Shown here one piece after another: positions 9,316 to 43,234 of a stretch of DNA of 64,000 nt. The translations under genes were made by a program, and so were the position numbers. Within the stretch, counting starts at the first letter, position 1. The number at the start of each line of letters is the position of its first letter. The notes below the pieces were generated by a model. It was not told the origin of the DNA and ran no database searches. It saw only the letters and a program-made list of their open reading frames with translations. The DNA comes from Candidatus Iainarchaeum sp. (GTDB lineage: Archaea; Iainarchaeota; Iainarchaeia; Iainarchaeales; JAXPJC01): assembly GCA_016187745.1 (NCBI GenBank), contig JACPJC010000006.1, forward strand, positions 32,001 through 96,000, in the 5' to 3' direction.

Positions 9316-9345
9316 GGAAGGTATCGGAAACGCAGTTTCTGATTG
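9316..9345 (+). repeat. hairpin micro-element family A, copy 1
   Basis: ggaaggt-atcggaaac-gca-gtttctgat-tg. Identical to the reverse complement of 26952-26981. Confidence 0.85.
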
Positions 9346-9387
9346 TGCTGTGCTGCAATGCAGTTTATATTAGCCTGGTGAATCTGA

Positions 9388-10506
9388 GTGACAAAGAAGC
9401 ATAAGCCAAGAAGCGGAAGCTTGCAATTCTACCCCAGAGTGCGCTCTGCAAAGCCTGTCGCAAATTTCACAACATTCCCGAAAATAACGGATGGCGCATC
9501 AAAGCCCATGAGCTTTTTCGGATACAAGGCCGGAATGCTGCATGTGATGGCGAAGGATTTGTATGACAAGTCCGCAACTTACGGGCATGAGCTGAGAATT
9601 CCCGCAACAATAGTTGAGGCGCCCCCCATGAAGGTTTTCGGAATCCGCGCATACGGGGATTCCTCAAAGGGAAAATATGCGCTTACTGAAATAATTGCCG
9701 AGAAATTTGACAAGCATCTGGGTAAGAGGATAAAAAACTTAAAGGGAAACGGCGATTTCGGGAAGATTGAAAAATTAAGGGACAGGGTTGTTGAAATAAG
9801 GCTTATTGCGCATGCGCAGCCGCACCTGACGGGAATAGGGAAAAAAATGCCCGAGGTAATGGAAATTGCGCTTTCGGGGGATGTGAATGCGCAGACGGAC
9901 TATGCTAAAAATATTCTGGGGAAAGAAATTTCAGCGAAGGATGTTTTTTCTGACAATGAGATTGTGGATGCGAGGGCCGTAACATTGGGAAAGGGATTCC
10001 AGGGCGTTGTGAAGCGCTTTGGTGTAAGAACATTGCGCAGAAAATCAAAGAAGGAAAGGATGGTTGGAAGCATAGGGCCATGGAACCCGAGCCTTGTGAT
10101 GTGGACCGTTGCCCGCGCTGGACAAATGGGCTATCACGCAAGGGCGGAATACAACAAGCGCATACTTAAGATTTTTGAGAATCCCGCGGAGCTGAATCCG
10201 AGCTCGGGGCTTGAGGGCTATGGGACATTGAGGGGCACTGCAATTCTTGTCGCCGGCTCGCTGCCGGGGCACATAAAAAGGATTGTCGCGCTGCGCAAGG
10301 CGATAAGGAAGCCGCACATTGAAAGGAAATTGAGCGAAATTACATTCATATCAACAAGGCCTGAAATTGCAAAAACTTCTGAAGAGGAAGCCGCAGTGCA
10401 TAAGGTAAGGGCTGAAAAGAAAGTTGAGAAGGAAGAGAAAAGCGTGAAGGATGAGATTGCAATGGCAGTAAAGGGGGAGAAGGAAAAGAAGGAAAAGGAG
10501 AAGTAA
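9388..10506 (+). CDS. rpl3: 50S ribosomal protein uL3
   Basis: PRSGSLQFYPR, GYKAGM, GKGFQGVVKRFG, RAGQMGYH. Confidence 0.96.
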   Translation: MTKKHKPRSGSLQFYPRVRSAKPVANFTTFPKITDGASKPMSFFGYKAGMLHVMAKDLYDKSATYGHELRIPATIVEAPPMKVFGIRAYGDSSKGKYALTEIIAEKFDKHLGKRIKNLKGNGDFGKIEKLRDRVVEIRLIAHAQPHLTGIGKKMPEVMEIALSGDVNAQTDYAKNILGKEISAKDVFSDNEIVDARAVTLGKGFQGVVKRFGVRTLRRKSKKERMVGSIGPWNPSLVMWTVARAGQMGYHARAEYNKRILKIFENPAELNPSSGLEGYGTLRGTAILVAGSLPGHIKRIVALRKAIRKPHIERKLSEITFISTRPEIAKTSEEEAAVHKVRAEKKVEKEEKSVKDEIAMAVKGEKEKKEKEK

Positions 10507-10524
10507 AAGCGGGAAATGATTTTT

Positions 10525-11346
10525 ATGAAAGAGGCTAACGTATTTTCAGTTTCTGGGGAAATGGCGCATTCCATAAAGCTGCCCGAGGTATTCAATGAGC
10601 CCTACCACCCTGAGCTTATAAAGCGCGCGGCGCTTTCCGCTATTTCAGCAAGATTCCAGCCCAAGGGGACATACCCCGATGCGGGAAGGGAAGTTGTTAC
10701 TGAATACAGGAGTCTGCGCTCTCTCCCTGCAATGGAGCGCACTATGAATGTTGACAAGGCGCGCAAGCCCAGGACAAAACACAGGCGCGGGCTGCTTGCG
10801 GGAGATGTTGCAGCAATCCCGGGAGTTGTTGGAGGCCCAAAATCACACCCCCCTAAGGCGATTAAAACACTCCATGAGAGGATAAATGAGAAGGAGAGAA
10901 GGCTTGCAATAAAAAGCGCCATTGCCGCATCATGCGACAGGAAGCTTGTAATTGCGCACGGCCATAAGATTTCCGAAGGGATTGAGCTCCCGATAATTAT
11001 TGAGAAGGGGATTGAGAAGCTGAAGAAAACAAATGAAGTGTGCAAAATGCTCAAGGCGCTTAAATTATGGCAGGATGTGGAGCGCGCGAAAAAGAAGAAG
11101 CTGCGCTCAGGCAAGGCAAAAAGGCGCGGAAGGAAATACGCAAGAAGGAAAAGCGCGCTCATTGTTGTTTCTGGCAGCAGGGAAGGAATTTACAGGGCCG
11201 CAAGGAACATCCCTGGAATTGATGTGATTGAGCTGCGCAATTTGAATGCGGAAGTTCTTGCTCCGGGCGCAAAGGCCGGAAGGCTTGTGATATGGTCCGA
11301 GAATGCAGTAAACGAACTTTCAGAAAAAGAAAAGGTAAGTGCTTAA
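10525..11346 (+). CDS. rpl4: 50S ribosomal protein uL4
   Basis: LPEVF...LIKRA, HPPK, INEKERRLAIKSA, RNIPGID, LAPG; operon position. Confidence 0.93.
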   Translation: MKEANVFSVSGEMAHSIKLPEVFNEPYHPELIKRAALSAISARFQPKGTYPDAGREVVTEYRSLRSLPAMERTMNVDKARKPRTKHRRGLLAGDVAAIPGVVGGPKSHPPKAIKTLHERINEKERRLAIKSAIAASCDRKLVIAHGHKISEGIELPIIIEKGIEKLKKTNEVCKMLKALKLWQDVERAKKKKLRSGKAKRRGRKYARRKSALIVVSGSREGIYRAARNIPGIDVIELRNLNAEVLAPGAKAGRLVIWSENAVNELSEKEKVSA

Positions 11347-11347
11347 A

Positions 11348-11782
11348 ATGGCTGAAAAGAAAATCGCAAAGAAAGGGAAGGATGCTGAAAAGCAGAAGCC
11401 TGCGATTGCCAAGGCCGGGAAAAAGACAGCGGGGGAAAAGGCGGAAAAAAAAATTGAAAATGAAGCTGCGCAGAAGGAAAAGGCGCCGGAAAAACGCAGT
11501 TTTTCTGATATTGAGAAGGAGCTTAAGAATTTTGAAATAATTAAGTTCGCGCTCATAAGCGAGAAGGCAGTGAACATGATTGAAAGGGAAAACAAGCTGA
11601 CATTCATAGTGAACCAGAGTGCGGACAAGCCCTCAATAAAAAGGGCGATTGAGGAGATGCACAAGGTGAAGGTAGATTCCGTGAAGGTAATAAGGGACAG
11701 GAAAGGCAGAAAGAAGGCGATTGTAAAAATAGGAAAGGGCTTCAAGGCAAGCGATGTTGCAACAAGGCTGGGTGTGATATAG
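11348..11782 (+). CDS. rpl23: 50S ribosomal protein uL23 with K/A/E-rich N-terminal extension
   Basis: SEKAVNMIERENKLTFIV, KKAIVK, ASDVATRLGVI. Confidence 0.93.
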   Translation: MAEKKIAKKGKDAEKQKPAIAKAGKKTAGEKAEKKIENEAAQKEKAPEKRSFSDIEKELKNFEIIKFALISEKAVNMIERENKLTFIVNQSADKPSIKRAIEEMHKVKVDSVKVIRDRKGRKKAIVKIGKGFKASDVATRLGVI

Positions 11783-11783
11783 C

Positions 11784-12503
11784 ATGGGAAAGAGACTTAA
11801 ACAGCAGCGCAGGGGAAAGGGCAGCCCGATGTTCATAGCAAGGCACGGCATTGCTGATGTCGAATATCTGCCAATAACTCCGGAACAGAATGAGGGAACG
11901 CTCAGGGGTAAGGTTGTTGATTTGGTTCCTGATAAAGTCAGGAGCGCTGTGCTTGCGGATATTTTGTTTGAGAACGGGCTGCGCTCATATATGATTGCGC
12001 CGGAAGGGATGTTTGTGGGGCAGGAACTTCATTACGGCAGGAAAGCGCCATTGGAAATAGGGAACGTACTGCCATTGAATGAGATTGCGGAGGGCTGCCC
12101 GATATTCAATATAGAAAAGCGCCCTGGAGATGGGGGGTGTTATATTAAAACTTCCGGTATTTATGGATATATTGTAACAAAGGAGCCTGGAAGGGTTTAT
12201 GTAAAGCTGCCGAGCGGAAAAACGGTTGAGATTTCCCCGGAATCGCGCGCCACAATAGGGAATATTTCCGCGGGGGGAAGGACTGAAAAGCCCATGCTCA
12301 AGGCAGGAACGCATTATCATGCGATGCACGCAAAGGGCTACCATTACCCCGGGGTAAGGGGCGTTGCAATGAATCCTGTTGACCATCCGTTTGGGGGCGC
12401 GCAGCACCATGCGGGAAAATCCAAGAGCGTTTCAAGGCATGCCGCTCCAGGGCAGAAGGTTGGGGCAATAGCAAGCAAGCGCACAGGGAGAACAAAGAGG
12501 TAG
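11784..12503 (+). CDS. rpl2: 50S ribosomal protein uL2
   Basis: MGKRLKQQRRGKG, VRGVAMNPVDHPFGG. Confidence 0.97.
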   Translation: MGKRLKQQRRGKGSPMFIARHGIADVEYLPITPEQNEGTLRGKVVDLVPDKVRSAVLADILFENGLRSYMIAPEGMFVGQELHYGRKAPLEIGNVLPLNEIAEGCPIFNIEKRPGDGGCYIKTSGIYGYIVTKEPGRVYVKLPSGKTVEISPESRATIGNISAGGRTEKPMLKAGTHYHAMHAKGYHYPGVRGVAMNPVDHPFGGAQHHAGKSKSVSRHAAPGQKVGAIASKRTGRTKR

Positions 12504-12509
12504 AGGCAA

Positions 12510-12917
12510 ATGGTAAAAAAGGATTTTGCATTCCGCGGGCATCCTATTGAGGAACTGCTAAAGCTTTCTGACAAGGACTTTTCCAAGCTCATATGCTCAA
12601 GGTCCCGCAGGACTCTGTTGCGCAGCGGAATGGACAAGAAGATTGAGAAGAAAATCGAGAAGGCGCATGCGCTCTTGCAGCAGGGAAGGGAGGCAAAGCC
12701 CATCCGCACGCATCTGCGCAACATAATTGTTGTGCCGAGGATGGTCGGATTGAGGTTTGCAGTGCACAGGGGAAACACATTTGAGATTATAGGGATCATG
12801 CCGGAGATGCTCGGGCATTTCCTCGGGGAATTTGCGCTTACAAGGAAGAAGATGATGCACGGGAGAGCGGGAATCGGCGCGACAAAATCATCAACCGCGA
12901 TAACCGCAAGAGGATAA
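12510..12917 (+). CDS. rps19: 30S ribosomal protein uS19
   Basis: IRTHLR, MLGHFLGEFALTRK, GIGATKSS. Confidence 0.96.
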   Translation: MVKKDFAFRGHPIEELLKLSDKDFSKLICSRSRRTLLRSGMDKKIEKKIEKAHALLQQGREAKPIRTHLRNIIVVPRMVGLRFAVHRGNTFEIIGIMPEMLGHFLGEFALTRKKMMHGRAGIGATKSSTAITARG

Positions 12918-12929
12918 AGGGGAAGGAAA

Positions 12930-13406
12930 ATGGTAAAAAGGGATTATAATTTTGATTTTTCCGCCGTAAATCCGAAAAGGAGCGCGAGGGCAATACTGGC
13001 AAACCAGCCGGTTTCGCTGAAATATTCCGTTGAGCTTTGCAGGGAACTGAAGGGAAAAAGCACGAAGAACGCGGAGGCCTTCCTCAATGACCTGAAGGAA
13101 ATGCGCGCGTTTTTGCCATTGAGGAAATACCGCAAGAAGGTTCCGCATCGCGCCGGGGAGCCTAAAAGCAAGGCAAAGGCCGGGCGCTATCCCATAAAGG
13201 CTGCGGCGAAATTCCTGGATCTGCTGAAGCTTGTGAAGGCAAATGCGGATGTTAAAGGATTGGATGCGGGAAAGCTGCGAATAGTGCACCTGTTCGCTTC
13301 CCAGGGCTTTCACAGGAGAGGCATGCAGGCGCAGGGAAGAATCTCCGGAAAACAGCGCAAGAGAAAATCAACGCACCTTGAAATAGTCGTGCAAGAGGCG
13401 GGATAA
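12930..13406 (+). CDS. rpl22: 50S ribosomal protein uL22
   Basis: VSLKYSVELCR, GRYPIKAA, THLEIVV. Confidence 0.94.
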   Translation: MVKRDYNFDFSAVNPKRSARAILANQPVSLKYSVELCRELKGKSTKNAEAFLNDLKEMRAFLPLRKYRKKVPHRAGEPKSKAKAGRYPIKAAAKFLDLLKLVKANADVKGLDAGKLRIVHLFASQGFHRRGMQAQGRISGKQRKRKSTHLEIVVQEAG

Positions 13407-14152
13407 TGATAGAAAAGGCATTCATCAGGCAGGGGATAAAGAATGTGCAGCTTGAGGATTACATGAGGAAGCAGCTTAAAAGCGCGGGATTCACGCGCCT
13501 TGAGATTGTCAAAACGCCTTTAGTAACGAGGATTGTTGTGAATGTGACAAATCCCGGGCTTGCGATAGGGAAGGGCGGGCAGAACATAAGGACGCTTACA
13601 AAGGAGCTTGGGGAAAAATTCGGGATTGATAATCCGCAATTGGAAATAAAGGAGATTGAAAAGCCGCAGCTTGACGCGCAGGCGATGTCGGATTTGCTTT
13701 CAAGCCTTATTGAAAGGGGATTCTCATGGAGGAGCGTTGCATTCAAGATTGTAAGGGATATAATGAACGCGGGCGCATTGGGAGTGGAAATAATAATTTC
13801 CGGAAAGCTCGGGGGGAAGGGCGCAAGGAAGAAAAAGCAGAGGATTGCGCTCGGATACATGAAGAAGGCGGGGGAGCAGACAAGGCTTGTTGATGCGGGA
13901 ATGAAGACTTCTTACCCGAAGCAGGGCGCAATAGGAATAAAGGTAAAAATAATAAGGCCTGATGTGATGTTCCCGGATAAAATAAGGATAAGGGACGTAA
14001 TAGCGAAGAAAAGGGCGGATGAGGAAAAGGAGAATGAGAGAATCGCAAAAAGCGCGGAAGACGCTGAAAAGGCGCAGGCAAAGGAAGCCCCTGTTGCTGA
14101 AGAGGCTGCTGTGAAGGGAGAGGCTGCAGTTAAAATAGAGGAAGGCAAGTGA
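13406..14152 (+). CDS. rps3: 30S ribosomal protein uS3
   Basis: KH motif PGLAIGKGG, GALGVEIIISGKL. Confidence 0.95.
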   Translation: MIEKAFIRQGIKNVQLEDYMRKQLKSAGFTRLEIVKTPLVTRIVVNVTNPGLAIGKGGQNIRTLTKELGEKFGIDNPQLEIKEIEKPQLDAQAMSDLLSSLIERGFSWRSVAFKIVRDIMNAGALGVEIIISGKLGGKGARKKKQRIALGYMKKAGEQTRLVDAGMKTSYPKQGAIGIKVKIIRPDVMFPDKIRIRDVIAKKRADEEKENERIAKSAEDAEKAQAKEAPVAEEAAVKGEAAVKIEEGK

Positions 14153-14153
14153 A

Positions 14154-14390
14154 ATGGCGCTTAAGATAAGGCAGATAAGGGAAATGGCGGTTCAGGAGGC
14201 AGAGGAGAAGCTGCTTGAGATGCGCGCTGACCTTGCGAAGGAGAAGGCGCTTGTGGCAAGCCACACGAAGCAGGAAAACCCGGGGAAGATAAGGGCGCTG
14301 CGCAGGGCCGTTGCAAAAATACTGACAATTGTCAATGAGAAGAAGAATTCAGGCGATAAAAAAATAAAAAACAGGGGGAAAAGCGAATAA
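14154..14390 (+). CDS. rpl29: 50S ribosomal protein uL29
   Basis: NPGKIRALRRAVAKILT. Confidence 0.92.
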   Translation: MALKIRQIREMAVQEAEEKLLEMRADLAKEKALVASHTKQENPGKIRALRRAVAKILTIVNEKKNSGDKKIKNRGKSE

Positions 14391-14695
14391 TGGAAGAAGT
14401 CTGCCAGATATGCGGATTGCCTAAAAACATCTGCGTATGCACGCAAATAACAAAGGAAGCGCAGAAAATCAAGGTAAGTGCGGTAAAGCGCGCATTCGGA
14501 AAGATAATAACGACAATATCCGGAATTGATGATGTGCAGACCGCAAAGGAGCTTGAAAAAATAATGAAAAGGAAGCTTGCGTGCGGCGGAACAACGAAGG
14601 GAAAGACAATAGAGCTTCAGGGGAATCATAAAAGGAAAATAAAGGAAATACTGGTGGAACAGGGATACAAGGGGGAATCAATAGATGACAATTAA
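14390..14695 (+). CDS. translation initiation factor aIF1 (SUI1)
   Basis: CQICGLP..C.C, KLACGGT, IELQGNH. Confidence 0.93.
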   Translation: MEEVCQICGLPKNICVCTQITKEAQKIKVSAVKRAFGKIITTISGIDDVQTAKELEKIMKRKLACGGTTKGKTIELQGNHKRKIKEILVEQGYKGESIDDN

Positions 14696-14987
14696 ATATT
14701 TGATAAATGGGTCGAACCTTCCGGCGCACGAGCTCATAGGGCTGGATGCGAAAGTGGTAAAAAGCGCGGATGTGAACAAGGTGGGGCTTTCAGGAAGGAT
14801 TGTGGATGAGACAAGGAACATGTTTGAGATTGAGAAAAGGGGAAAAACAATGAGGATTCCGAAGCGCGAGGTTGTTATTGAATTCAGGCTTTCGGGAAAA
14901 AGCCTTGGGAAAATTGAATGCAGCAGGATAATCTGCAGGCCCGAGGACAGGATAAAGAATTATTTCAAAAAGGGCAGGGGCGCATAA
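14685..14987 (+). CDS. rnp1: RNase P protein subunit p29
   Basis: HELIGL, GRIVDETRNM, IPK, RPEDRIK. Confidence 0.92.
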   Translation: MTIKYLINGSNLPAHELIGLDAKVVKSADVNKVGLSGRIVDETRNMFEIEKRGKTMRIPKREVVIEFRLSGKSLGKIECSRIICRPEDRIKNYFKKGRGA

Positions 14988-14989
14988 AA

Positions 14990-15316
14990 ATGGCTGAAGA
15001 GCAAAAAAAGGAAGTTATCGGAAACGCAGTTTCTGATTGCAAGGATTTGAAATGCCCGGTTCACGGAAGCGTAAAAGTGAGGGGCAATATGTTTGAAGGA
15101 ATTGCAATAAGGGCAAAGGCGCCGAAAACAGTGATTGTTGAGCGCTATCTAATGCAGCATGTGAGGAAATACGAGAGATACAAGAAAGTTAGGTCGAGGA
15201 TTACGGCGCACAAGCCGGACTGCATTCAGGTTGCTATCGGGGATAAAGTGAGGATTGGCGAAACGCGCAAGCTCAGCAAGACAAAGAGCTTTGTGGTTAT
15301 GGAGGTGCTTAAGTAA
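14990..15316 (+). CDS. rps17: 30S ribosomal protein uS17
   Basis: CKDLKCPVHG, KYERY, GETRKLSKTKSF. Confidence 0.95.
   Translation: MAEEQKKEVIGNAVSDCKDLKCPVHGSVKVRGNMFEGIAIRAKAPKTVIVERYLMQHVRKYERYKKVRSRITAHKPDCIQVAIGDKVRIGETRKLSKTKSFVVMEVLK
15010..15039 (+). repeat. hairpin micro-element family A, copy inside the rps17 N-terminus
   Basis: ggaagttatcggaaacgcagtttctgattg, 29/30 to 9316-9345. Read in frame as EVIGNAVSD. Confidence 0.8.
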
Positions 15317-15714: not shown

Positions 15715-15733
15715 ATGATTTAAGTGTGATAAA

Positions 15734-16096: not shown

Positions 16097-16097
16097 A

Positions 16098-22956: not shown

Positions 22957-22990
22957 CTAAGTGGAAGTTTGAGGAAACGGAGGGTTTCTG

Positions 22991-23485
22991 ATGTGGCAAC
23001 TGATAAATCCTACAATTGATATTCTGCTGATTTCAATAGGCATAGCTGCGGTATCGCAGCTGTTCCAGATGAAATTTACAGACAGGAAAAAAATGCGAGC
23101 AATGCAGAAGGAAATGAAGGACAAGCAGAAGAGAATGCGCGAGCTTGCGGGAAAAACCGATGCTAACGCGCTTGCGGAAATCAAGAAACTCGAGCAGGAG
23201 ATGATGCATGCGCTCAATGAGAGCATGAAGCACAGCATGGGCAGCATGATAAAGCTTATGCCGCTTACAGTAATTTTCCTGTTTGTTTACTGGCTGCTTG
23301 GCAGCGCCTATGGGAGCAGCGCGGTGCCAACGCTTTTCCCAATAAGCATAGTCAAGCCCGCAATGGGCTGGATATGGTGGTATGTGATATGCGTATTTAT
23401 AGCAAGCATTGTAATAAGCGCATTAACGAATGCTGTTGAGAACAGGATGGAATCAAAAGCGCAGGGAGTTGCAAAAAATGGTTGA
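22991..23485 (+). CDS. DUF106 / EMC3-TMCO1 family membrane insertase-like protein
   Basis: TM helix, coiled coil with Met-rich stretch, GWIWWY; conserved position after secY. Confidence 0.82.
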   Translation: MWQLINPTIDILLISIGIAAVSQLFQMKFTDRKKMRAMQKEMKDKQKRMRELAGKTDANALAEIKKLEQEMMHALNESMKHSMGSMIKLMPLTVIFLFVYWLLGSAYGSSAVPTLFPISIVKPAMGWIWWYVICVFIASIVISALTNAVENRMESKAQGVAKNG

Positions 23486-26142: not shown

Positions 26143-26173
26143 ATATTAATTTTTCCTGAAAGAAGGGAAATTA

Positions 26174-26196
26174 ATAAGAAACCGGAGGTTTCTTAT
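26174..26196 (+). promoter_or_regulatory. perfect 10-bp hairpin overlapping the rpoD SD (GGAGG) and abutting the ATG
   Basis: ataagaaacc-gga-ggtttcttat. Confidence 0.55.
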
Positions 26197-26946
26197 ATGG
26201 ATGTAAAAAAAATTGCACAGAAGGAAAATACCCTTAAATTCCTTGTAAGGGGGGTAAATTCCGAATTTGCGAATTCCCTGCGCAGGGCAATAATGGCTGA
26301 TGTGCCCATACTTGCGATAGAGGATGTTTCAGTATATGAAAATTCCTCAATATTATATGATGAGTTCCTTACCCAGAGGCTTGCATTGATTCCATTGACA
26401 ACAGATTTGAAAACATACAAGAAGGGTGAATCCGCTAAAATGAGCATCGATAAGGAAGGGCCCTGCACGGTCTATTCAAAGGACATAAAATGCAGCGATC
26501 CGAAAATTGAGGTAGCGGACAAGCGCATTCCGATTGTCAAATTGCTGAAGGACCAGAAATTAAAGCTTGAGATGAAGGCAGTAATGGGCTTCGGGAAGGA
26601 GCATGCGAAATGGCAGCCTGCGGTTGTTTCCTACAGGCAGCTTGCAACAATAAGCATTGGGAAGGACTGCGACCTGTGCGGGAAATGCATTGAGAACTGC
26701 GCAAAGAAGCTTCTGGAGGCAAAGGCAAAGAAGATTGTCCTGGAAACGCCGATTGAATGCGATTTGTGCGGAAAATGCAGGGATGTGTGCAACCTGCAGC
26801 AGCTTGCGATAGAATACAGCAAGGATGATTTTTTGTTCACTGTGGAAAGCCACGGGGCCCTTGAGGCCTCTGAAATAGTGGAAAAGGCTGCGGAAATCCT
26901 GAAAGACAGGAATTCGGACTTCAGGAAGGAGATTAAAAAATTATAA
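26197..26946 (+). CDS. rpoD: RNA polymerase subunit D (Rpo3) with 2x[4Fe-4S] ferredoxin-like domain
   Basis: ANSLRR, NSSILYDE, EHAKWQP, two CDLCGKC...C motifs. Confidence 0.95.
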   Translation: MDVKKIAQKENTLKFLVRGVNSEFANSLRRAIMADVPILAIEDVSVYENSSILYDEFLTQRLALIPLTTDLKTYKKGESAKMSIDKEGPCTVYSKDIKCSDPKIEVADKRIPIVKLLKDQKLKLEMKAVMGFGKEHAKWQPAVVSYRQLATISIGKDCDLCGKCIENCAKKLLEAKAKKIVLETPIECDLCGKCRDVCNLQQLAIEYSKDDFLFTVESHGALEASEIVEKAAEILKDRNSDFRKEIKKL

Positions 26947-27034
26947 CATTACAATCAGAAACTGCGTTTCCGATACCTTCCTTTGTTTCAAGGGAAACTC
27001 GGACGAGGAGATTAATAAATTATAACATTACAAT
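26927..27034 (-). mobile_element. putative family A hairpin element (26952-26981, minus orientation) flanked by a 29-bp duplication of the rpoD 3' end
   Basis: aggagattaa(a/t)aaattataacattacaat at 26927-26955 and 27006-27034. Confidence 0.65.
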
Positions 27035-27130: not shown

Positions 27131-27272
27131 GCAGGGGTACCCAAGCGGCCAAAGGGGCAGGTGAGTTTTGATTTGAAAAAAACAAAATTCTGCCAAACTT
27201 AAGGTCTCTTGAAAAAAGGATGGGAAATCCTGTGGCTTAGTGCCTTCAAGGGTTCAAATCCCTTCCCCTGCA
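27131..27272 (+). tRNA. tRNA-Leu(UAA) with two introns (27162-27196 at 30/31; 27204-27226 at 37/38)
   Basis: Acceptor GCAGGGG/CCCCTGC-A, D arm, spliced anticodon arm CAGGA-CTTAAGA-TCCTG, long variable arm, T arm AAGGG-TTCAAAT-CCCTT. BHB motifs at both introns; typical rpoD-tRNALeu-L18e position. Confidence 0.9.
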
Positions 27273-27281
27273 CACCAATCC

Positions 27282-27304
27282 CTTTTCTTTTAGGAAAAGA
27301 AAAG
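27282..27304 (+). terminator. T-rich perfect inverted repeat after the tRNA
   Basis: cttttctttt-agg-aaaagaaaag. Confidence 0.45.
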
Positions 27305-28628: not shown

Positions 28629-28683
28629 CAAACATGGGGTTAATAAGGGCATTATGCCATTATAGCAGAAATCAAAGAGGTAA
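28609..28683. mobile_element. putative family C hairpin element (28635-28666) flanked by a 16-bp duplication of the rps9 3' end
   Basis: agcagaaatcaaagag at 28609-28624 and 28664-28679. 28635-28666 is 29/32 identical to the reverse complement of 35422-35453. Confidence 0.62.
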
Positions 28684-35421: not shown

Positions 35422-35453
35422 GCAATAAGGGCATAATGCCCTTATGAACCCCA
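35422..35453 (-). repeat. family C hairpin element
   Basis: Perfect palindrome ataagggcat-a-atgcccttat (35425-35445); atgaacccc repeated at 35413 and 35444. Confidence 0.7.
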
Positions 35454-35499
35454 AGCAGGAAAATTGTTTGGGCAGGGGCGAGAAAAGGAGGTTTCTGAT

Positions 35500-35853
35500 A
35501 TGGCTGAGAAGAAAGCTGAAAAGGCCGAGGCAAAGGAAGTCAGTGTGCAGAATCCGCTTGCGCTTGTCGAGAAAGTGAAGAAGACAGGCAAGCTGAAAAT
35601 AGGCATAAATGAGGTTACAAAGGCTGTTGAGAGGGGAGTCGCAAAGGCGGTTGTTGTTGCGGAGGACGTTAACCCCAAGGAAATAGTGATGCATCTGCCT
35701 GCGCTTTGCAAGGAAAAGAACATCCCGTTGCTGAATGCTCCGAGCAAAAAAGAGCTTGGTGAGAAGGCAGGGATTGTTGTCGGAACTGCGGCAGTTGCCG
35801 TTCTTGAAGAGGGCGATGCGAAGAAGGATATTGACGCGCTGCACAAGAAATGA
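35500..35853 (+). CDS. rpl7ae: 50S ribosomal protein L7Ae
   Basis: KIGINEVTKAVERG, AEDVNP.EIV.HLP.LC.EK; GGAGG SD before ATG 35500. Confidence 0.95.
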   Translation: MAEKKAEKAEAKEVSVQNPLALVEKVKKTGKLKIGINEVTKAVERGVAKAVVVAEDVNPKEIVMHLPALCKEKNIPLLNAPSKKELGEKAGIVVGTAAVAVLEEGDAKKDIDALHKK

Positions 35854-36095: not shown

Positions 36096-36296
36096 ATGCC
36101 AAAGTGCAGTTTTTGCGGGGACAATCTGCTCCGCGGCTCGGGGCTCATGTATGTCAAGAAGGACACTACAGTTTATTATTTCTGCAGCCGCAAGTGCGAG
36201 AAGAATCTCCTGAATTTGCGCAGAAACCCGAGAAAGGCGGAATGGACCGCAACGCATAAGAAGTGGAAAGGCGCGGGCTCAAAGGAAGGCGGCTAA
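36096..36296 (+). CDS. rpl24e: 50S ribosomal protein eL24
   Basis: CSFCG, FCSRKCEKN, RNPRK.EWT. Confidence 0.94.
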   Translation: MPKCSFCGDNLLRGSGLMYVKKDTTVYYFCSRKCEKNLLNLRRNPRKAEWTATHKKWKGAGSKEGG

Positions 36297-36297
36297 A

Positions 36298-36777: not shown

Positions 36778-36779
36778 GG

Positions 36780-38474: not shown

Positions 38475-38620
38475 AGCCAGCTCCCAATAAGAATAATCCG
38501 AATAACCCTTAAAAAGCATTCCCTACAATAGTTATTACAGAATAGCGCTCTTCTTTTTGGCTTTGCATATTGTTCTGAGTTGCTTGTTCGAAATTGAAAG
38601 TTTTAAACTGGTGAGCTGAA

Positions 38621-40381
38621 ATGAATGCAATAAGGCAGCCCATAATTGTTGTTATGGGGCATGTGGACGCTGGAAAGACAAGCCTGCTTGACCGCATTAG
38701 GGGCACAACTGTTGCGGCGCGCGAGGCGGGCGCAATAACCCAGCATATTGGCGCTACGGAAGTCCCTGTAGAAATAATAAGCAGAATTTCCGGCGCGCTG
38801 CTCGGGAAATACGGCTTCAAATTGAACATTCCAGGGCTGCTGTTCATTGACACGCCTGGGCATGAGGCATTTACGCATTTGCGCGAGAGGGGGGGGAGCA
38901 TTGCGGATTTGTGCGTGCTTGTAGTGGATGCAATAAAGGGATTGCAGGAGCAGAGCTTTGAGGCGCTGAATATTTTAAGGACATTCAAGACCCCGTTCAT
39001 TGTTGCAATGAACAAAATAGACAATATTGCGGGATGGAAGACCGCGGATGCGAGCTTCACTGCAAATCTTGCGCAGCAGAACGCATATGCGCTTGAGGCG
39101 CTTGACAAGAAGTTATATGAAGTTGTGGGGCAGCTGCACGCAAGGGGATTCAATTCCGAGAGGTTTGACCGCTGCGAGAATTTTACGCAGCAGATTCCGA
39201 TAATCCCGGTGTGCTCGAAATCGGGGGAAGGGATTGCCGAAGTGCTTGTGTTTTTGTCGGGATTGAGCCAGAAATTCCTGGAAAGCGAGCTGGCGCTGCA
39301 TGTGAAGGGCGCGGCGCGCGGGAGCGTGCTTGAGGTAAATGAGGAGCGGGGATTGGGGACAACGATTGACATTATTTTATACGATGGAACTCTGCACGCA
39401 AAGGAGGAAATTGCGGTTCTCGGAAGGGCGGGGGTCATAACAACGAAAGTGCGCGCAATATTGAAGCCCAGGGCGCTTGAGCAGATGGGAACAGGGGAAA
39501 AATTCTTCAATGTGCTGGAAGCGCATGCGGCTTCGGGAATAAAAATTTCCGCGCCCCTTCTTGAGAATGCAATTGCGGGCTCCCCGTTCATTGCGGTAAG
39601 CTCGGAAAAGGACATTGAGGAACTTAAAAAAGAATCAAGGGAAATAAAAATCGAAAGCGATGTTGCAGGGGTTGTAATAAAGGCGGATACGCTTGGAAGC
39701 TTGGAAGCCATGGTCAAGCTGCTGCAGAATGCGGGGCTTAAAATAAGGTTTGCGGATCTTGGCGCAATAAGCAGGAATGATGTGATGTGCGCCCTTGCGG
39801 TAAGGGAGAATGATGCGGAAAAGGCGGTAATATTCGCATTCAATGTGCCTGCCCTTCCGGAAGCGCTGCAGGAGGCCGAAAAGAAGGGAATAAAAATATT
39901 CTCTGGGAACGTTATATACAGGCTTATTGAGGATTACACTCAATGGATTGAGCTTTTCAAGGAGCAGGCAAGGAAGCAGAAGGAAGCGGAGCTCATTTAC
40001 CCCTTTGCCTTCAAAATACTTCCAGGCATGGTCTTCAGGAACAGCAAGCCGGCTGTTGCGGGAATCCATGTGACAAGCGGAAAAATAAAGCCCGGAGTGG
40101 AAATTATGAACGAGAATGGAGAAATTGTTGGGAAGGTGGAATCGCTGCAGTCGGAGGGAAAAACGCTTCATGAGGCCGGGAAGGGGGATGAAGTCGCAAT
40201 CGCGATTTCCGGAGCGACAATAGGGAGGCAGATAAGCGAGAATGAGACCCTGTATTCTGCAATAACCCAGAAGGGGCTTGCAAAAATCCTGCAGAACGCG
40301 GACATGTTCAGTTCTGAGGAAATTGAGCTTGCGAAAAAATTGTTTGAAAAACTAAAAAGCACTGAAGAAGAGGGCAATTGA
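38621..40381 (+). CDS. infB: translation initiation factor aIF5B (IF-2)
   Basis: GHVDAGKT, EAGAITQHIGA, DTPGHEAF, NKID. Confidence 0.97.
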   Translation: MNAIRQPIIVVMGHVDAGKTSLLDRIRGTTVAAREAGAITQHIGATEVPVEIISRISGALLGKYGFKLNIPGLLFIDTPGHEAFTHLRERGGSIADLCVLVVDAIKGLQEQSFEALNILRTFKTPFIVAMNKIDNIAGWKTADASFTANLAQQNAYALEALDKKLYEVVGQLHARGFNSERFDRCENFTQQIPIIPVCSKSGEGIAEVLVFLSGLSQKFLESELALHVKGAARGSVLEVNEERGLGTTIDIILYDGTLHAKEEIAVLGRAGVITTKVRAILKPRALEQMGTGEKFFNVLEAHAASGIKISAPLLENAIAGSPFIAVSSEKDIEELKKESREIKIESDVAGVVIKADTLGSLEAMVKLLQNAGLKIRFADLGAISRNDVMCALAVRENDAEKAVIFAFNVPALPEALQEAEKKGIKIFSGNVIYRLIEDYTQWIELFKEQARKQKEAELIYPFAFKILPGMVFRNSKPAVAGIHVTSGKIKPGVEIMNENGEIVGKVESLQSEGKTLHEAGKGDEVAIAISGATIGRQISENETLYSAITQKGLAKILQNADMFSSEEIELAKKLFEKLKSTEEEGN

Positions 40382-40436
40382 GAAATAAAATAAGAAAAAT
40401 AAGAATAATTTCAACAAATCAAACGGAGGAGAAAAA

Positions 40437-40928
40437 ATGCAATTATCAATTTCAGATCCGAAAAGCGGAAAAGCATATTCAAAAAAAATAGAGGAAGCGG
40501 GAATATTCCTCAACAAAAAGCTCGGGGACACTGTCGAGCTTTCTGCAATAGGGATGCAGGGATACAGGGCGAAAATTGCGGGAGGCTCGGACAAGTGCGG
40601 ATTTCCCATGCACCCCGGGGTTTCAGGGCTTGCGAGAAAAAGGCTTTTCATTGCGGAGGGAACAGGCTTCAATGCGGAGAAGCGCGGGGAAAGGAAGCGC
40701 AAGAACGTAAGGGGAAATGTAATCGGCGCTGACATAAATCAGCTGAACTTAAGGGTTTCCGAATATGGAAGTGTTCCCTTGAGCGAGCTGTTTGCGGGGG
40801 AAATTGCAAAGCCGAAGGAAGAGAAGAAGTCAGCAAAGGAAGCGCTGGTTGAGCAGAGCCTTGAGCAGGTTGGAAAGGTAGAAATTGCCGGCGACTCAAG
40901 CAAAATAAAGGGGAAGGCGAAGGGTTAG
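40437..40928 (+). CDS. rps6e: 30S ribosomal protein eS6
   Basis: ISDPKSGK, GGSDKCGFPM, GERKRK.VRG. Confidence 0.95.
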   Translation: MQLSISDPKSGKAYSKKIEEAGIFLNKKLGDTVELSAIGMQGYRAKIAGGSDKCGFPMHPGVSGLARKRLFIAEGTGFNAEKRGERKRKNVRGNVIGADINQLNLRVSEYGSVPLSELFAGEIAKPKEEKKSAKEALVEQSLEQVGKVEIAGDSSKIKGKAKG

Positions 40929-40931
40929 TGA

Positions 40932-42149
40932 ATGCGTACAGCTGAAAACCAGTCAAATGAGCCGTTGCAGGCTGAGGTCAATATAGGCATGGTGGGGCAC
41001 GTTGACCATGGGAAAACAAGCCTTACTAAGGCAATAACCGGAAAGTGGACTGACACGCATTCCGAGGAGCTGAAGCGCGGAATTTCCATAAGGCTTGGGT
41101 ATGCGGATGCGGTCTTCTACAAGTGCGAAAAATGCTCTGGCGCAGGGGCATACGCAACAAAGCCGAAATGCGGAAAGTGCTCGGGAAATGCGAAGCTCCT
41201 TAGGAAAGTGAGCTTTGTTGATGCGCCCGGGCATGAAACACTTATGACCACAATGCTTTCAGGAGCCGCGCTAATGAACGGCGCGATTCTTGTAATTGCT
41301 GCAAATGAGCCCTGCCCGCAGCCGAGGACTGCGGAGCACTTGACTGCACTGAAGATGTCGGGGATAAACAGCATTGTTGTTGCGCAGAACAAGATAGACC
41401 TTGTATCAAGGGAAAAGGCGCTGGAATCCTTCAGGGAAATAAGGGAATTCCTGAAGGAATATGATGCGGAGGATGCGCAGATAATCCCTGTTGCGGCGCA
41501 CTTCAATGCGAACATTGACGCGCTTGTTGAGGCGCTGGAAAAGGCAATTCCCTCCCCAAAATTCGAATCCGGGAAGCCGCTGAGGATGTTTATTGCAAGA
41601 AGCTTTGACATAAACAGGCCCGGAAGCAAGGCAGAGGAGCTAAAGGGCGGGGCGCTCGGGGGCTCAATAACGCTTGGCTTTGCAAAGGTCGGGGATGAAA
41701 TTGAAATAGCCCCGGGAATTGACGGGAAGAAATTGAAAACAAAAATCTCAAGCCTGAGCACAGCAAATTACGAATTGAAGGAGGCAAAGCCCGGGGGGCT
41801 TATAGCAATAGGGACAACTCTTGACCCTTCAATCACAAAAAACGACCAGATGCGCGGGCAGGTTGTGGGGGCGCTCAACACGCTTCCGGAGCCGGTTTCA
41901 AGGGTGAAGCTCGAGGTGCATGAGATGAAAAGGCTGCTTGAGGAGATAGGGAAAATAAAGGTGAATGAAACTGTCGTGCTTACTGTTGGAACTGCAAGCA
42001 TTGCTGCGAGCGTTGCAAAAATGGCAGGGAGCAACAAATTCGAATTCCTGCTCAAATCGCCTGTTGTTGTAGAGCCCAAACAGAAGGTTGCAATAAGCAA
42101 GCTGGTAAAATCGGCATGGCGCCTTGCGGCGTATGGTGTTGTTTCATGA
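40932..42149 (+). CDS. eif2g: translation initiation factor 2 gamma subunit
   Basis: GHVDHGKT, HSEELKRGISI, DAPGHE, zinc knuckle. Confidence 0.96.
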   Translation: MRTAENQSNEPLQAEVNIGMVGHVDHGKTSLTKAITGKWTDTHSEELKRGISIRLGYADAVFYKCEKCSGAGAYATKPKCGKCSGNAKLLRKVSFVDAPGHETLMTTMLSGAALMNGAILVIAANEPCPQPRTAEHLTALKMSGINSIVVAQNKIDLVSREKALESFREIREFLKEYDAEDAQIIPVAAHFNANIDALVEALEKAIPSPKFESGKPLRMFIARSFDINRPGSKAEELKGGALGGSITLGFAKVGDEIEIAPGIDGKKLKTKISSLSTANYELKEAKPGGLIAIGTTLDPSITKNDQMRGQVVGALNTLPEPVSRVKLEVHEMKRLLEEIGKIKVNETVVLTVGTASIAASVAKMAGSNKFEFLLKSPVVVEPKQKVAISKLVKSAWRLAAYGVVS

Positions 42150-42538
42150 GGATAGCAATTGACGCGAATATGCTGCTTGCAATCGCAAATGAGAAGATTG
42201 ACGTTTTCGGGCAGATAAGGGATGAGTTCGGAAAAACTGCTGAAATCATAATTCCGAGGCAGGTAATTGATGAGCTGAAAATCCTTTCGAAGCGGAACAA
42301 AAAAAATGAAAATGCGGTGAAAATTGCAATGCAGGAAATTGAAAAGAATGATGCGCGCATTCGGGAAGTAAATGCAAAAAATGCCGATGAGGCGCTGATT
42401 GCGCTTGCAAGGGAAGGAACTGCTGTTGCAACAAATGATTCCGCGCTCAAGAAAGAGGTTAAAAAACTTAACGCTGGGATAATATTTACAAGAAAAGGGC
42501 GATTTTTGGCATTTTCTTCTATGAATCTTCTGTTTTAA
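42146..42538 (+). CDS. PIN domain protein (Fcf1/VapC9-like)
   Basis: IDANML, ADEAL, ATND..L; conserved position after aIF2-gamma. Confidence 0.85.
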   Translation: MRIAIDANMLLAIANEKIDVFGQIRDEFGKTAEIIIPRQVIDELKILSKRNKKNENAVKIAMQEIEKNDARIREVNAKNADEALIALAREGTAVATNDSALKKEVKKLNAGIIFTRKGRFLAFSSMNLLF

Positions 42539-42563
42539 TGGATTTAAATGGAGTTAGAGAAAA

Positions 42564-43184
42564 ATGTATGCACTTTGTGAAATCCGGGATACAATACGCG
42601 TGCCCCCTGACAAGTTTGAAAGCAACCTGGAGAAGGCGATGCTGAAAATAATCCAGGAGGAGTATGAGGGGCTGGTGGATGAGGACCTTGGGGTTATTGT
42701 TGCGGTCAATGATGTGAAGAACATCGGCGAGGGAAAAGTAATTCCGGGGGAGGGCGCGGCGTATTACTCCGCCGACTTTGAATTGCTTGTTTACAAGCCA
42801 GAGGTTCAGGAAGTTGTGGAGGGATTTGTTTCCGAGGTTGCGGAATTCGGGGCTTTCCTGCGCACGGGCCCTGTGGAAGGCCTTATACACGTTTCGCAGA
42901 TAATGGATGATTACATAAATTATGACGGGAAACTGCCGGGGTTTGTGGGAAAATCCTCAAAGAAGAAGCTGGTTGTAAATGATGAGGTAATTGCAAGGGT
43001 AATTTCAGTGAGCCTGAAGGGAAGCATTGCGGAATCAAAGATAGGACTGACAATGAGGCAGCCCTTCCTTGGAAAAGAGGAATGGCAGAAGATTGATGAG
43101 AAGCTCAAGCTCAGGGAAAAGCCGAAGCCGCAGGAAAAGAAGCAGGTGAAGCAGGCGCCGGACAGAAGGCCTGAGAAAAAGTAA
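42564..43184 (+). CDS. rpoE: RNA polymerase subunit E' (Rpo7)
   Basis: IRVPP, FGAF...GP.EGLIHVSQI, IGLTMRQP.LG. Confidence 0.96.
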   Translation: MYALCEIRDTIRVPPDKFESNLEKAMLKIIQEEYEGLVDEDLGVIVAVNDVKNIGEGKVIPGEGAAYYSADFELLVYKPEVQEVVEGFVSEVAEFGAFLRTGPVEGLIHVSQIMDDYINYDGKLPGFVGKSSKKKLVVNDEVIARVISVSLKGSIAESKIGLTMRQPFLGKEEWQKIDEKLKLREKPKPQEKKQVKQAPDRRPEKK

Positions 43185-43206
43185 GGGAAGCTAATAATGA
43201 AAATGA

Positions 43207-43234
43207 GGAAGGTATCGGAAACGTAGTTTCTGAT
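43207..43234 (+). repeat. family A hairpin element with GTA loop
   Basis: ggaaggtatcggaaacgtagtttctgat, 27/28 to the 9316 copy. Confidence 0.8.

What the first reader, a model, noticed from the sequence alone, without database searches (positions are those of the whole stretch)
9316..43234. Dispersed 30-nt GNA-triloop hairpin element (family A), including copies translated inside ribosomal proteins
Seen: GGAAGGT-ATCGGAAAC-GCA-GTTTCTGAT-TG occurs at 9316-9345 (L3 leader), 26952-26981 (reverse strand, 30/30), 15010-15039 (in frame in the S17 N-terminus, 29/30) and 43207-43234 (GTA loop, 27/28). Variants lie at 11487-11509 (inside the L23 extension, longer A/T stem) and 22963-22992 (before DUF106). 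The loop change keeps the c-GNA-g pattern, known to form very stable ssDNA hairpins. Inference: a REP/RPE-like selfish micro-element in a DPANN-type genome, possibly mobilised in trans and contributing new peptide sequence to r-protein tails.
Basis: partly seen in the sequence, partly recalled or inferred. Interest (0 to 1): 0.75.

Follow-up and report, generated by a model that had tools for sequence, protein, structure and literature searches.

The report
Dispersed 29-base tagged hairpin element
A 29-base hairpin-forming motif is scattered through this archaeon's ribosomal-protein gene cluster, once inserted in frame into protein S17, and almost the same motif sits beside tRNA and integrase genes of other archaea and inside a repeat family of gut bacteria, so it is a real and unusually widespread small element whose way of spreading is still unknown.

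Summary
Four near-identical copies lie at the stated coordinates, with 0 expected by chance. Each is an unpaired AGGAAGGT tag followed by a 9-bp stem with one G.T wobble and a G-N-A loop.

The variant at 22963 is borderline. The one at 11487 (L23) is at chance level.

The S17 copy is a lineage-specific 39-nt in-frame insertion. It occurs in 5 of 120 homologues, and 96 of 120 begin M-x-x-C, so empty sites exist. The reverse copy lies 5 nt after the RpoD stop. It is a 39-nt insert between two copies of the RpoD 3' end.

The element is not private to this lineage. A truncated public-genome scan found the same tag plus hairpin in 13 archaeal loci and in 81 bacterial loci, most of the latter titled Gastranaerophilales. 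The archaeal copies abut tRNA genes or the starts of integrase ORFs. The bacterial copies head a repeat of about 130 nt.

No transposase lies near any copy, and no Rfam family or paper matches.

Best reading (0.45): a REP-like tagged-hairpin element that spreads by insertion and is tolerated co-directionally with transcription. The mobilising enzyme is unknown. A conserved 5'-leader function remains a serious rival.

The parts
9316..9345 (+). Copy 1, in the 183-nt spacer before L3 (start 9388). The flanks CAGCA / UGCUG extend the hairpin. The A-rich leader TGAAAATG begins at 9302.
14999..15037 (+). 39-nt in-frame insertion in S17 (codons 4-16, EQKKEVIGNAVSD). It consists of an A-rich leader plus the tag and hairpin. 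The core 30-mer is 15010-15039.
26952..26981 (-). Copy 3, reverse orientation, 5 nt after the RpoD stop codon (26944-26946). The 39 nt at 26956-26994 lie between the two direct repeats.
26911..26955 (+). Direct repeat 1: the native 3' end of RpoD (..NSDFRKEIKKL*) plus 9 nt.
26995..27034 (+). Direct repeat 2: a decayed duplicate of the RpoD 3' end (reads GNSDEEINKL*, with a 6-nt deletion).
43207..43236 (+). Copy 4 (GTA loop), in the 62-nt spacer between RpoE' (ends 43184) and Spt4 (ATG 43247). It shares the leader TGAAAATG with copy 1.
22963..22992 (+). Borderline relative. It keeps GGAAGTT..GGAAACG..GTTTCTGAT, but the loop is GGAGG (Shine-Dalgarno-like) and the ATG of the EMC3/YidC-like gene (22991) overlaps its 3' end.
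11487..11509 (+). Claimed L23 variant, not supported as a member (chance-level score, no indel against relatives).
26160..26199 (+). Hairpin ATAAGAAACC-GGA-GGTTTCTTAT ending at the RpoD ATG, with a Shine-Dalgarno-like sequence in the loop. Model E 1.2, so the relation to the element is uncertain.

Best explanation
It is a short 'tagged hairpin' repeat of the REP kind. The core has 29 nt: an unpaired purine tag AGGAAGGT, then a strand-specific 9-bp stem (ATCGGAAAC / GTTTCTGAT) with one G.T (G.U) wobble, closed by a G-N-A triloop. In this genome it is carried with an A-rich leader of about 10 nt as a discrete unit of about 39 nt.

Shown:
- The unit has been copied into new places. One is a clean 39-nt in-frame insertion after codon 3 of S17. 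Another is a 39-nt insert between two copies of the RpoD 3' end.
- Close relatives of the core occur in several archaeal phyla and in a bacterial repeat family.
- No copy has a second copy or a transposase beside it.

Inferred:
- The unit is non-autonomous and is inserted by a function encoded elsewhere. Two candidates are a single-strand (HUH/Y1-type) enzyme that reads the hairpin and its 5' tag on one strand, and a function of the integrating elements that carry the element beside their integrase gene in Bathyarchaeia.
- Selection then filters orientation. On the sense strand the element is only a 5'-proximal stem-loop with a Shine-Dalgarno-like tag, which is tolerated in leaders and even inside S17. 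Its complement reads hairpin + ACCUUCCUUU(U), which looks like an archaeal terminator. That orientation survives only at an operon end (after RpoD) or behind tRNA genes.
For: - Four copies with 0-3 mismatches, against 0 expected.
- S17: only 5 of 120 listed homologues (the query and its 4 closest, 72-86% identical) carry the 13-residue insert. 96 of 120 start M-x-x-C, including P0005, which is 83% identical. 6 have other longer N-termini and 13 lack the Cys motif.
- RpoD copy: a 39-nt insert between direct repeats of 40-45 nt. Repeat 1 matches the C-terminus of relatives 89-95% identical, and repeat 2 is decayed.
- The copies share 37-42 nt including an A-rich leader.
- Hairpin: 153 of 153 cells paired in 17 archaeal copies, with 2 compensatory pairs at the two outer positions that my search pattern did not fix. 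The forward strand folds about twice as well as the reverse strand.
- Spread across genomes: of 119 loci, 13 archaeal loci carry AGGAAGGTA+core, 81 bacterial loci carry AGGAAGGT+core, 8 belong to another repeat family sharing the core, 15 look like chance and 2 are cut by contig ends. About 17 chance hits is my own estimate from pattern length and collection size.
- The bacterial copies are intergenic in all four gene-orientation classes (10, 7, 6 and 4). That fits a selfish repeat.
- Intragenic, amino-acid-encoding REPs and unpaired end tags are described for bacteria (PMC3733652, passages read).
Against: - No transposase, reverse transcriptase or integrase lies in the 64-kb window. None lies beside copies in 175 flanking ORFs, except one IS3 transposase and two integrases.
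- No inverted doublets or second copies lie within 2 kb, apart from one tandem pair in L087.
- No GTAG tag.
- Insertion footprints are inconsistent: none or at most 4 nt at S17, about 45 nt at RpoD.
- The S17 insertion predates the split of lineages 72-86% identical in S17. Yet its core still matches the other window copies at 29 of 30 bases, third codon positions included. Neutral decay of a dead selfish copy does not predict this. It points to selection on the nucleotide sequence or to gene conversion.
- 16 of 17 archaeal copies are co-oriented with a gene, tRNA or ORF start that follows within 0-44 nt, or in one case contains them. That also fits a functional leader.
- Near-identity of tag and hairpin between Archaea and Bacteria is unusual for REP-like repeats, which the census paper PMC11602168 (passages read) describes as taxon-specific for MITEs.
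Confidence: 0.45

Rival explanations
1. A conserved cis-acting 5'-leader module that works as RNA. The purine tag AGGAAGGU acts as a Shine-Dalgarno-like or protein-binding single strand, and the G.U hairpin brings it next to the start codon or marks a processing or stability site. Genes and mobile elements recruit it because it is useful, not because it is selfish.
For: - 16 of 17 archaeal copies lie on the sense strand of what follows or contains them. L3 follows at 44 nt and Spt4 at 12 nt. tRNA 5' ends follow within 3 nt in L038, L087 and L112. Integrase ORFs start 5 nt (L075) and 9 nt (L052) after the core.
- In the other Bathyarchaeia loci a start-like codon opens a frame reading ..RAGFEP.. 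0-11 nt after the hairpin.
- The old S17 copy keeps the nucleotide consensus.
- Three genes in the window have a Shine-Dalgarno sequence followed by a closely similar spacer: YidC-like and L7Ae (GGAGG(G)TTTCTGAT(AT)G) and RpoD (GGAGGTTTCTTATATG). In the YidC-like and RpoD genes it sits in the loop of a GAAAC/GTTTC hairpin.
- The tag is conserved in both domains although my pattern did not demand it.
Against: - S17 lacked it in 96 of 120 homologues, so it is not an ancestral regulatory site there.
- A translation signal makes no sense in front of tRNAs or inside an ORF.
- One copy is antisense to RpoD.
- Bacterial copies show no orientation preference.
- No Rfam family matches.
- Many of the archaeal loci share one RHH-element-integrase cassette, so they are not independent. 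About 9 independent contexts remain.
Confidence: 0.25
2. A protein-binding palindrome that belongs to integrating mobile elements, either an operator for the neighbouring RHH/CcdA-like protein or an integrase arm site next to attP. Under this reading the chromosomal copies in this window are scars left by integration and imperfect loss of such elements.
For: - In Bathyarchaeia the element lies downstream of an RHH/CcdA-like ORF in 8 of 10 loci by translation (Pfam CcdA matched only the L074 ORFs). It is followed by an integrase ORF that contains a tRNA fragment (L075, L052), or by a complete tRNA whose 3' end faces it (L007, L039, L074, L090, L092, L107).
- The RpoD copy has the same geometry: the host gene's 3' end faces the CTGAT end of the element, with att-like direct repeats on both sides.
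- A toxin-antitoxin cassette in the same window is likewise flanked by a 42-nt duplicate of the RtcB 3' end.
- In another repeat family, with 2-4-bp target duplications, the half-site ATCRGAAAC lies in both terminal repeats.
- Compensatory changes keep dyad symmetry, which also fits a dimeric binder.
Against: - The S17 insertion is a clean 39 nt with no duplicated flank.
- The L3 and Spt4 copies have no att-like repeats.
- No integrase or matching RHH gene lies in the window. The only RHH-like gene is the antitoxin of a ParE pair.
- The invariant G/A asymmetry of the half-sites and the unpaired tag are not explained.
- The DPANN copies abut tRNA 5' ends, not 3' ends.
Confidence: 0.15
3. An autoregulatory r-protein binding site that mimics ribosomal RNA, as in bacterial S10, spc and alpha operon leaders.
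For: - Copies lie at the head of the L3 operon, at the start of S17 and before Spt4-S24e-S27ae.
- The stem holds a G.U pair next to a G-C pair.
- The reverse complement aligns to the 3' tail of E. coli 16S rRNA better than 1996 of 2000 shuffles. This comparison was chosen after the fact.
Against: - Not positionally conserved at S17.
- Also found beside integrases and tRNAs, and tens of times in bacterial intergenic DNA.
- One copy is on the wrong strand.
- The 16S similarity needs 3 gaps in 27 columns and puts the loop in a different register.
Confidence: 0.05

Closest known systems
REP / REPIN elements of Bacteria (RAYT-associated, GTAG- or CGTC-tagged palindromes)
   Same: A 20-40-nt imperfect palindrome with an unpaired conserved tag at one end. 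It is dispersed, mostly between genes, and occasionally sits inside ORFs where it encodes a few residues. It can supply stop codons or terminators (PMC3733652, passages).
   Different: The tag is AGGAAGGT, not GTAG or CGTC. There are no head-to-head doublets. No RAYT was seen. It occurs in Archaea, whereas that survey lists bacterial phyla only. The same sequence is shared across domains.
Rickettsia palindromic elements (RPE)
   Same: Selfish palindromic DNA inserted in frame into essential protein genes, adding a peptide segment (from my own knowledge and the mention in PMC3733652).
   Different: RPEs are about 100-150 bp and confined to Rickettsia. This unit has 39 nt, and only one in-frame copy is shown here.
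IS200/IS605 ends and their miniature derivatives (PATEs)
   Same: A strand-specific imperfect hairpin with a conserved stretch 5' of its foot. The S17 insertion shows no clear target duplication. That family occurs in both Bacteria and Archaea (own knowledge).
   Different: Those elements need two different hairpin ends and a fixed 4-5-nt target. Here there is a single hairpin, and the only shared left flank is a loose TGA|A 6-17 nt upstream. No TnpA was seen.
IS5-family terminal inverted repeats / MITEs
   Same: Both ends of E. coli IS5A begin with the same 7 bases as the element's tag. A repeat family of about 125 nt in two bacterial MAGs uses the half-site ATCRGAAAC in its terminal repeats and has short target duplications.
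   Different: Identity to IS5 stops after 7 bases. The element has no second GGAAGGT end and no consistent target duplication. It is far below MITE size.
Archaeal oligo-T / hairpin terminators
   Same: The reverse strand reads a hairpin followed by ACCTTCCTTT(T). The reverse copy lies 5 nt after the last gene of the S13-S4-S11-RpoD block. In Bathyarchaeia it follows tRNA 3' ends.
   Different: Terminators are not conserved in sequence across phyla. Three of the four window copies are in the non-terminator orientation.

Membership tests
REP/REPIN (RAYT-mobilised) | Short imperfect palindrome (20-40 nt) present in many copies | tested here: met
   29-nt core with a 9-bp stem. 4 copies in 64 kb. 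The genome-wide count could not be tested.
REP/REPIN (RAYT-mobilised) | Unpaired GTAG (or CGTC) tag at one end | tested here: not met
   The unpaired end is AGGAAGGT in all 17 archaeal copies. GTAG occurs only across the loop and stem of GTA-loop copies.
REP/REPIN (RAYT-mobilised) | Copies commonly arranged as inverted doublets | tested here: not met
   No second copy within 2 kb in any locus or in the window. The only exception is one direct tandem in L087.
REP/REPIN (RAYT-mobilised) | Cognate Y1 transposase (RAYT) in the genome, flanked by REPs | not testable with these tools
   None in the window or among 175 flanking ORFs. The rest of the source genome was not available.
MITE | Terminal inverted repeats flanking an internal region, size about 50-500 bp | tested here: not met
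   The only inverted repeat is the hairpin itself, 3 nt apart. The unit has 29-39 nt.
MITE | Target-site duplication of fixed length | tested here: not met
   S17: no duplication beyond a possible CTGA. RpoD: about 45 nt. L3 and Spt4: none consistent.
IS200/IS605-derived element | Two subterminal hairpins (left and right end) and insertion 3' of a fixed 4-5-nt target | tested here: inconclusive
   There is a single hairpin. A TGA|A lies 6-17 nt upstream of the tag in all four window copies, but not in most other archaeal copies.
Rfam RNA families (leaders, riboswitches, ribozymes, CRISPR repeats) | Match to a curated covariance model | tested here: not met
   No match at gathering score in the window. 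None at E up to 0.1 in 14 loci apart from tRNAs and two weak sub-threshold hits elsewhere in the loci. Only far-sub-threshold long-hairpin hits for the bacterial repeat.
r-protein operon autoregulatory site | Positional conservation in orthologous operons of relatives | tested here: not met
   Absent from S17 of 96 of 120 homologues, including one 83% identical. The L3 and Spt4 leaders could not be compared because no relative DNA was available.
Intrinsic / archaeal terminator | Hairpin followed by a T-run on the transcribed strand at a gene's 3' end | tested here: inconclusive
   This holds only for the reverse orientation (1 of 4 window copies, and the Bathyarchaeia copies behind tRNAs). The simple terminator scan did not flag it.

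The most novel reading that the evidence does not exclude
The tag plus G.U hairpin is a single nucleic-acid module kept nearly unchanged in at least three archaeal phyla and in Melainabacteria-type bacteria. Under this reading it persists because a widespread, still unidentified machinery reads it on one strand. That would be either a new hairpin-guided insertion system that targets the first bases of transcription units (tRNA +1, leaderless integrase genes, operon leaders), or a universal RNA-binding factor. Its ability to land in frame in an essential r-protein would be a side effect.
Probability: 0.2. Interest if true: 0.85.

Novelty: new variant of a known kind. Interest (0 to 1): 0.65.

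Why it matters
Short tagged palindromes (REPs) are well described in Bacteria. The one REP survey I read lists only bacterial phyla, and I searched no paper for archaeal REP-like repeats. They are usually lineage-specific.

Here one motif, tag included, recurs in a Diapherotrites-like DPANN genome, Micrarchaeota and Bathyarchaeia. With a one-base difference it also recurs tens of times per genome in gut Gastranaerophilales. It sits at the exact boundaries of tRNA and integrase genes and has added 13 residues to ribosomal protein S17.

If it is mobile, it points to an unrecognised mobilising activity shared across domains. If it is functional, it is an uncatalogued cis-element of highly expressed genes. 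Either way it gives a concrete, searchable handle: a 29-mer, a covariance model and a filled/empty site in S17.

Tried and rejected
- Rfam at gathering score on the window, at E up to 0.1 on 14 loci and at E up to 10 on one bacterial repeat: no family.
- ARAGORN on the window: nothing.
- BLAST of the unit against phage and plasmid collections: only chance-level hits, E 0.6-0.7.
- Full-text search for six 14-mers of the element in DNA, RNA and reverse-complement spelling: 0 papers. Search for Melainabacteria + repetitive element + hairpin: 0 papers. The DPANN/MITE search gave only a general MITE census.
- Similarity of the reverse complement to the 16S rRNA 3' tail: nominally unusual (4 of 2000 shuffles). 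It was chosen after the fact, is gapped and is structurally out of register, so I dropped it as an explanation.
- IS5 end: identity is limited to 7 bases, so it is kept only as a lead.
- The sigma-70/terminator scan did not flag the element and is not designed for archaea.
- The 11-mer shared upstream of S17 and L7Ae is not above chance.
- Rejected by eye only, with no tool: hammerhead core, K-turn or box C/D, bulge-helix-bulge intron, CRISPR repeat (no array), dif or hix-type recombination site (odd 3-nt centre).
The source genome itself was not among the hits: BLAST of all loci against the window found only the element.
Full report
**What is there**

| Position | Strand | Mismatches |
|---|---|---|
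| 9316-9345 | + | 0 |
| 15010-15039 | + | 1 |
| 26952-26981 | - | 0 |
| 43207-43236 | + | 3 |

None of 100 dinucleotide shuffles gave a match. Pairwise alignment shows that the copies share 37-42 nt. There is an A-rich leader (TGAAAATGA, TTGAAACAAA, AGCAAAAAAA), then AGGAAGGT, then ATCGGAAAC-G(C/T)A-GTTTCTGAT.

Pfam annotation shows an archaeal ribosomal-protein super-operon. The best protein hits are labelled Candidatus Diapherotrites. The copies lie as follows:
- 44 nt before the L3 start.
- In codons 7-16 of S17.
- 5 nt after the RpoD stop, on the other strand.
- 12 nt before the Spt4 ATG.

The window holds no transposase, integrase or reverse transcriptase.

**Structure**

On the strand given, the element forms a 9-bp stem with one G.U (G.T) pair and a three-base loop.
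- As RNA it folds at -8 to -13 kcal/mol, with z-scores -1.9 to -3.6.
- The complementary strand has an A.C mismatch and folds at -4.5 to -6.8 kcal/mol.
- With DNA parameters the values are -4.6 to -4.8 against -2.4 to -2.6 kcal/mol.

In 17 archaeal copies all 153 pair cells are standard pairs. The two outermost pairs each show one compensatory change: A-U to G-C in L038, and U-A to C-G in the second copy of L087. My search pattern fixed the inner seven pairs and the G-N-A loop of the fetched copies, so their invariance says nothing.

**The claimed variants**

A covariance model of the 17 copies scores the four copies at E 1.7e-11 to 4.1e-10. These four were part of the model's alignment, so they match by construction. 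Nothing else in the window scores below E 0.78.
- 22963-22992 keeps GGAAGTT, GGAAACG and GTTTCTGAT. Its loop is GGAGG, and the ATG of the EMC3/YidC-like gene overlaps its end. Its local-alignment score of 29 is reached by 5 of 100 random sequences, so it is borderline.
- 11487-11509 scores 25 against a random mean of 24. In an alignment of 15 L23 homologues, the residues it encodes (KRSFSD) line up without an indel with AKTSAE or TKSAAD in clade relatives. It is not supported.

**Evidence of insertion**

*S17.* I examined 120 listed homologues.
- Five, the query and its four closest relatives at 72-86% identity, read MAE-[13 residues containing (E)G/V-I-G-N..]-C.
- 96 start M-x-x-C. P0005, 83% identical over the rest, reads MAEC.
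- Six have other longer N-termini, and 13 lack the Cys motif.

The S17 copy is therefore a derived 39-nt in-frame insertion (14999-15037) shared by a small clade. That it is translated is inferred: no in-frame start lies between the ATG at 14990 and the first conserved Cys.

*RpoD.* The 39 nt at 26956-26994 lie between two direct repeats.
- Repeat 1 (26911-26955) is the native end of the gene. Relatives 89-95% identical end ..NSDF(R/K)KEIKK(L/I).
- Repeat 2 (26995-27034) is a decayed duplicate that would read GNSDEEINKL*.

The two events share the insert length of 39 nt but not the footprint.

**Distribution elsewhere**

I sorted them by the flank that the pattern did not fix.

| Class | Loci |
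|---|---|
| AGGAAGGTA before the core; all archaeal | 13 |
| AGGAAGGT before the core; all from bacterial records | 81 |
| Different repeat of about 125 nt (GGCCAA-core-TTGGCC) | 8 |
| Unrelated flanks, chance-like | 15 |
| Cut by contig ends | 2 |

- The 13 archaeal loci comprise Bathyarchaeia (10), Micrarchaeota (2) and an unclassified archaeon (1). No bacterial locus has the extra A.
- Most of the 81 bacterial loci carry Gastranaerophilales titles or come from untitled MAGs with the same repeat. At least one (L078, Moraniibacteriota) may be a chance match.
- About 17 chance hits is my own estimate from pattern length and collection size, close to the 15 seen.
- Retrieved bacterial copies reach 10-17 per genome, which is a lower bound.

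None of the loci is otherwise similar to the window.

**Context of the archaeal copies**

- In Micrarchaeota (L038, L112) and the unclassified archaeon (L087), the hairpin ends within 3 nt of a tRNA 5' end. L087 has a full copy, a partial copy and a second full copy in tandem.
- In Bathyarchaeia the element lies downstream of an RHH/CcdA-like ORF in 8 of 10 loci by translation. Pfam's CcdA model matched only the L074 ORFs.
- It is followed either by an integrase ORF that starts 5-9 nt after the core and contains a tRNA-like stretch (L075, L052), or by a complete tRNA on the other strand whose 3' end faces it after 3-11 nt.
- The RHH frame runs through the element in different reading frames, or stops before it. 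Conservation is therefore at the nucleotide level.
- Counting the window, 16 of 17 archaeal copies are on the sense strand of the start that follows within 0-44 nt, or, for S17, of the gene that contains them. Many Bathyarchaeia loci share one cassette, so roughly nine contexts are independent.

**Context of the bacterial copies**

The tag and hairpin head a repeat of about 130 nt. After them come a variable 40-190 nt and then a long polypyrimidine/polypurine hairpin.
- The repeats are intergenic, beside ordinary housekeeping genes. All four orientation classes are represented: 10, 7, 6 and 4.
- Among 175 flanking ORFs scanned, the only mobility genes were one IS3 transposase and the two archaeal integrases.
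- No locus has a second copy within 2 kb except L087.

**Comparison with known families**

- REPs share the architecture of an unpaired tag plus an imperfect palindrome, and occasional intragenic copies that encode residues (PMC3733652, passages read). Against membership: the tag differs, there are no doublets, no RAYT was seen, and that survey lists only bacterial phyla.
- MITE criteria are not met: no terminal repeats around a body, no fixed target duplication, and the size is too small.
- IS200/IS605-like logic fits the strand asymmetry and the tag, but needs two ends.
- Both ends of E. coli IS5A begin with the element's first 7 bases and share nothing further.
- No Rfam family matches. There are no phage or plasmid hits. 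No paper contains the sequence.

**Interpretation**

*Shown:*
- A discrete unit has been inserted at least twice in this lineage.
- It is strand-specific.
- Its tag and hairpin recur across phyla and, with one base fewer, across domains.
- It travels without a neighbouring transposase.

*Inferred:*
- It is a REP-like, non-autonomous element inserted by a function encoded elsewhere.
- Orientation is filtered by selection. The reverse strand reads a hairpin plus ACCTTCCTTT(T), which is terminator-like. That orientation is seen only after RpoD and behind tRNAs.

*Against a purely selfish reading:*
- The S17 copy is old, being shared by lineages 72-86% identical. Yet it still matches the other window copies at 29 of 30 bases, all third codon positions included.
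- Copies hug gene starts.

These points keep a functional 5'-leader reading alive (0.25). A third reading treats the element as a binding site belonging to integrating elements, with the chromosomal copies as scars. It fits the RpoD copy and the Bathyarchaeia cassettes but not S17 (0.15).

**Limits**

- No DNA of close relatives could be fetched.
- The only collection scan was truncated.
- All functional statements are inferences from sequence.

Noticed in passing
window 27134-27285: A tRNA-like gene. By eye it has the acceptor GCAGGGG/CCCCTGC, a T-arm AAGGG-TTCAAAT-CCCTT, a long variable region and at least one intron. Neither ARAGORN nor Rfam calls it.
   Followed up: partly
window 6149-6191 and 6774-6816, flanking 6251-6759: A two-gene cassette (DUF7557 antitoxin-like plus ParE-type toxin domain) sits between two 95%-identical copies of the last 42 nt or so of RtcB, stop codon included. 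This is the same kind of gene-3'-end duplication as at RpoD.
   Followed up: partly
window 27282-27304; L087 178-203; L112 217-239; L006, L054, L068, L073, L097, L105: A second shared hairpin, CTTTTCTTTT-loop-AAAAGAAAAG. It lies in the tRNA trailer of the window, inside tRNA introns of two DPANN loci, and as the 3' hairpin of the bacterial 130-nt repeat in 6 loci. The sequence is low in complexity, so homology is uncertain.
   Followed up: partly
loci L001-L119, bacterial subset (e.g. L001 1992-2125): A repeat of about 130 nt in Gastranaerophilales-type MAGs. It runs tag + hairpin, a variable middle, then a 17-20-bp polypyrimidine/polypurine hairpin. At least 10-17 copies per genome were retrieved, often at contig ends. 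No Rfam family matches.
   Followed up: partly
L005, L008, L009, L014, L022, L061, L088, L072: A GC-rich MITE-like repeat of about 125 nt. Both ends contain ATCAGAAA, and the same core is extended to a 14-bp hairpin. It is flanked by 2-4-bp direct repeats (CTAG, CTCG, CGAG). Seven loci come from one MAG labelled Enterobacteriaceae and one from a Myxococcales MAG.
   Followed up: partly
L075 2024-2893, L052 712-1992: Bathyarchaeia integrase ORFs (Pfam Phage_integrase / Archaeal phage integrase) whose first codons are encoded by a tRNA-like stretch. This is the arrangement expected when attP lies inside the integrase gene.
   Followed up: partly
window 28635-28666 and 35422-35453: A second palindromic pair, 91% complementary over 32 nt and centred on AAGGGCAT(T/A)ATGCC(C/A)TT. 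One lies after S9 and one before L7Ae. Two matches are reached by 6 of 100 shuffles.
   Followed up: partly
window 22975-22993, 26177-26199, 35482-35503: Three genes (YidC-like, RpoD, L7Ae) have a Shine-Dalgarno sequence followed by a closely similar spacer: GGAGG(G)TTTCTGAT(AT)G in two and GGAGGTTTCTTATATG in RpoD. In YidC-like and RpoD it sits in the loop of a GAAAC/GTTTC hairpin. Most other genes in the window have an A-rich spacer instead.
   Followed up: partly
window 11348-11540 (L23 N-terminus): A Lys/Glu-rich N-terminal extension of about 55 residues on L23. It is shared by the 9 closest homologues and absent from the next ones.
   Followed up: yes
proteins P0066, P0082, P0041, P0004 (S17 homologues): Other S17 homologues carry different N-terminal inserts, such as ..GLR(N/S)FGG(K/R)KME before the Cys motif. 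P0004 has a further 17-residue insert nested inside the element-encoded peptide.
   Followed up: no
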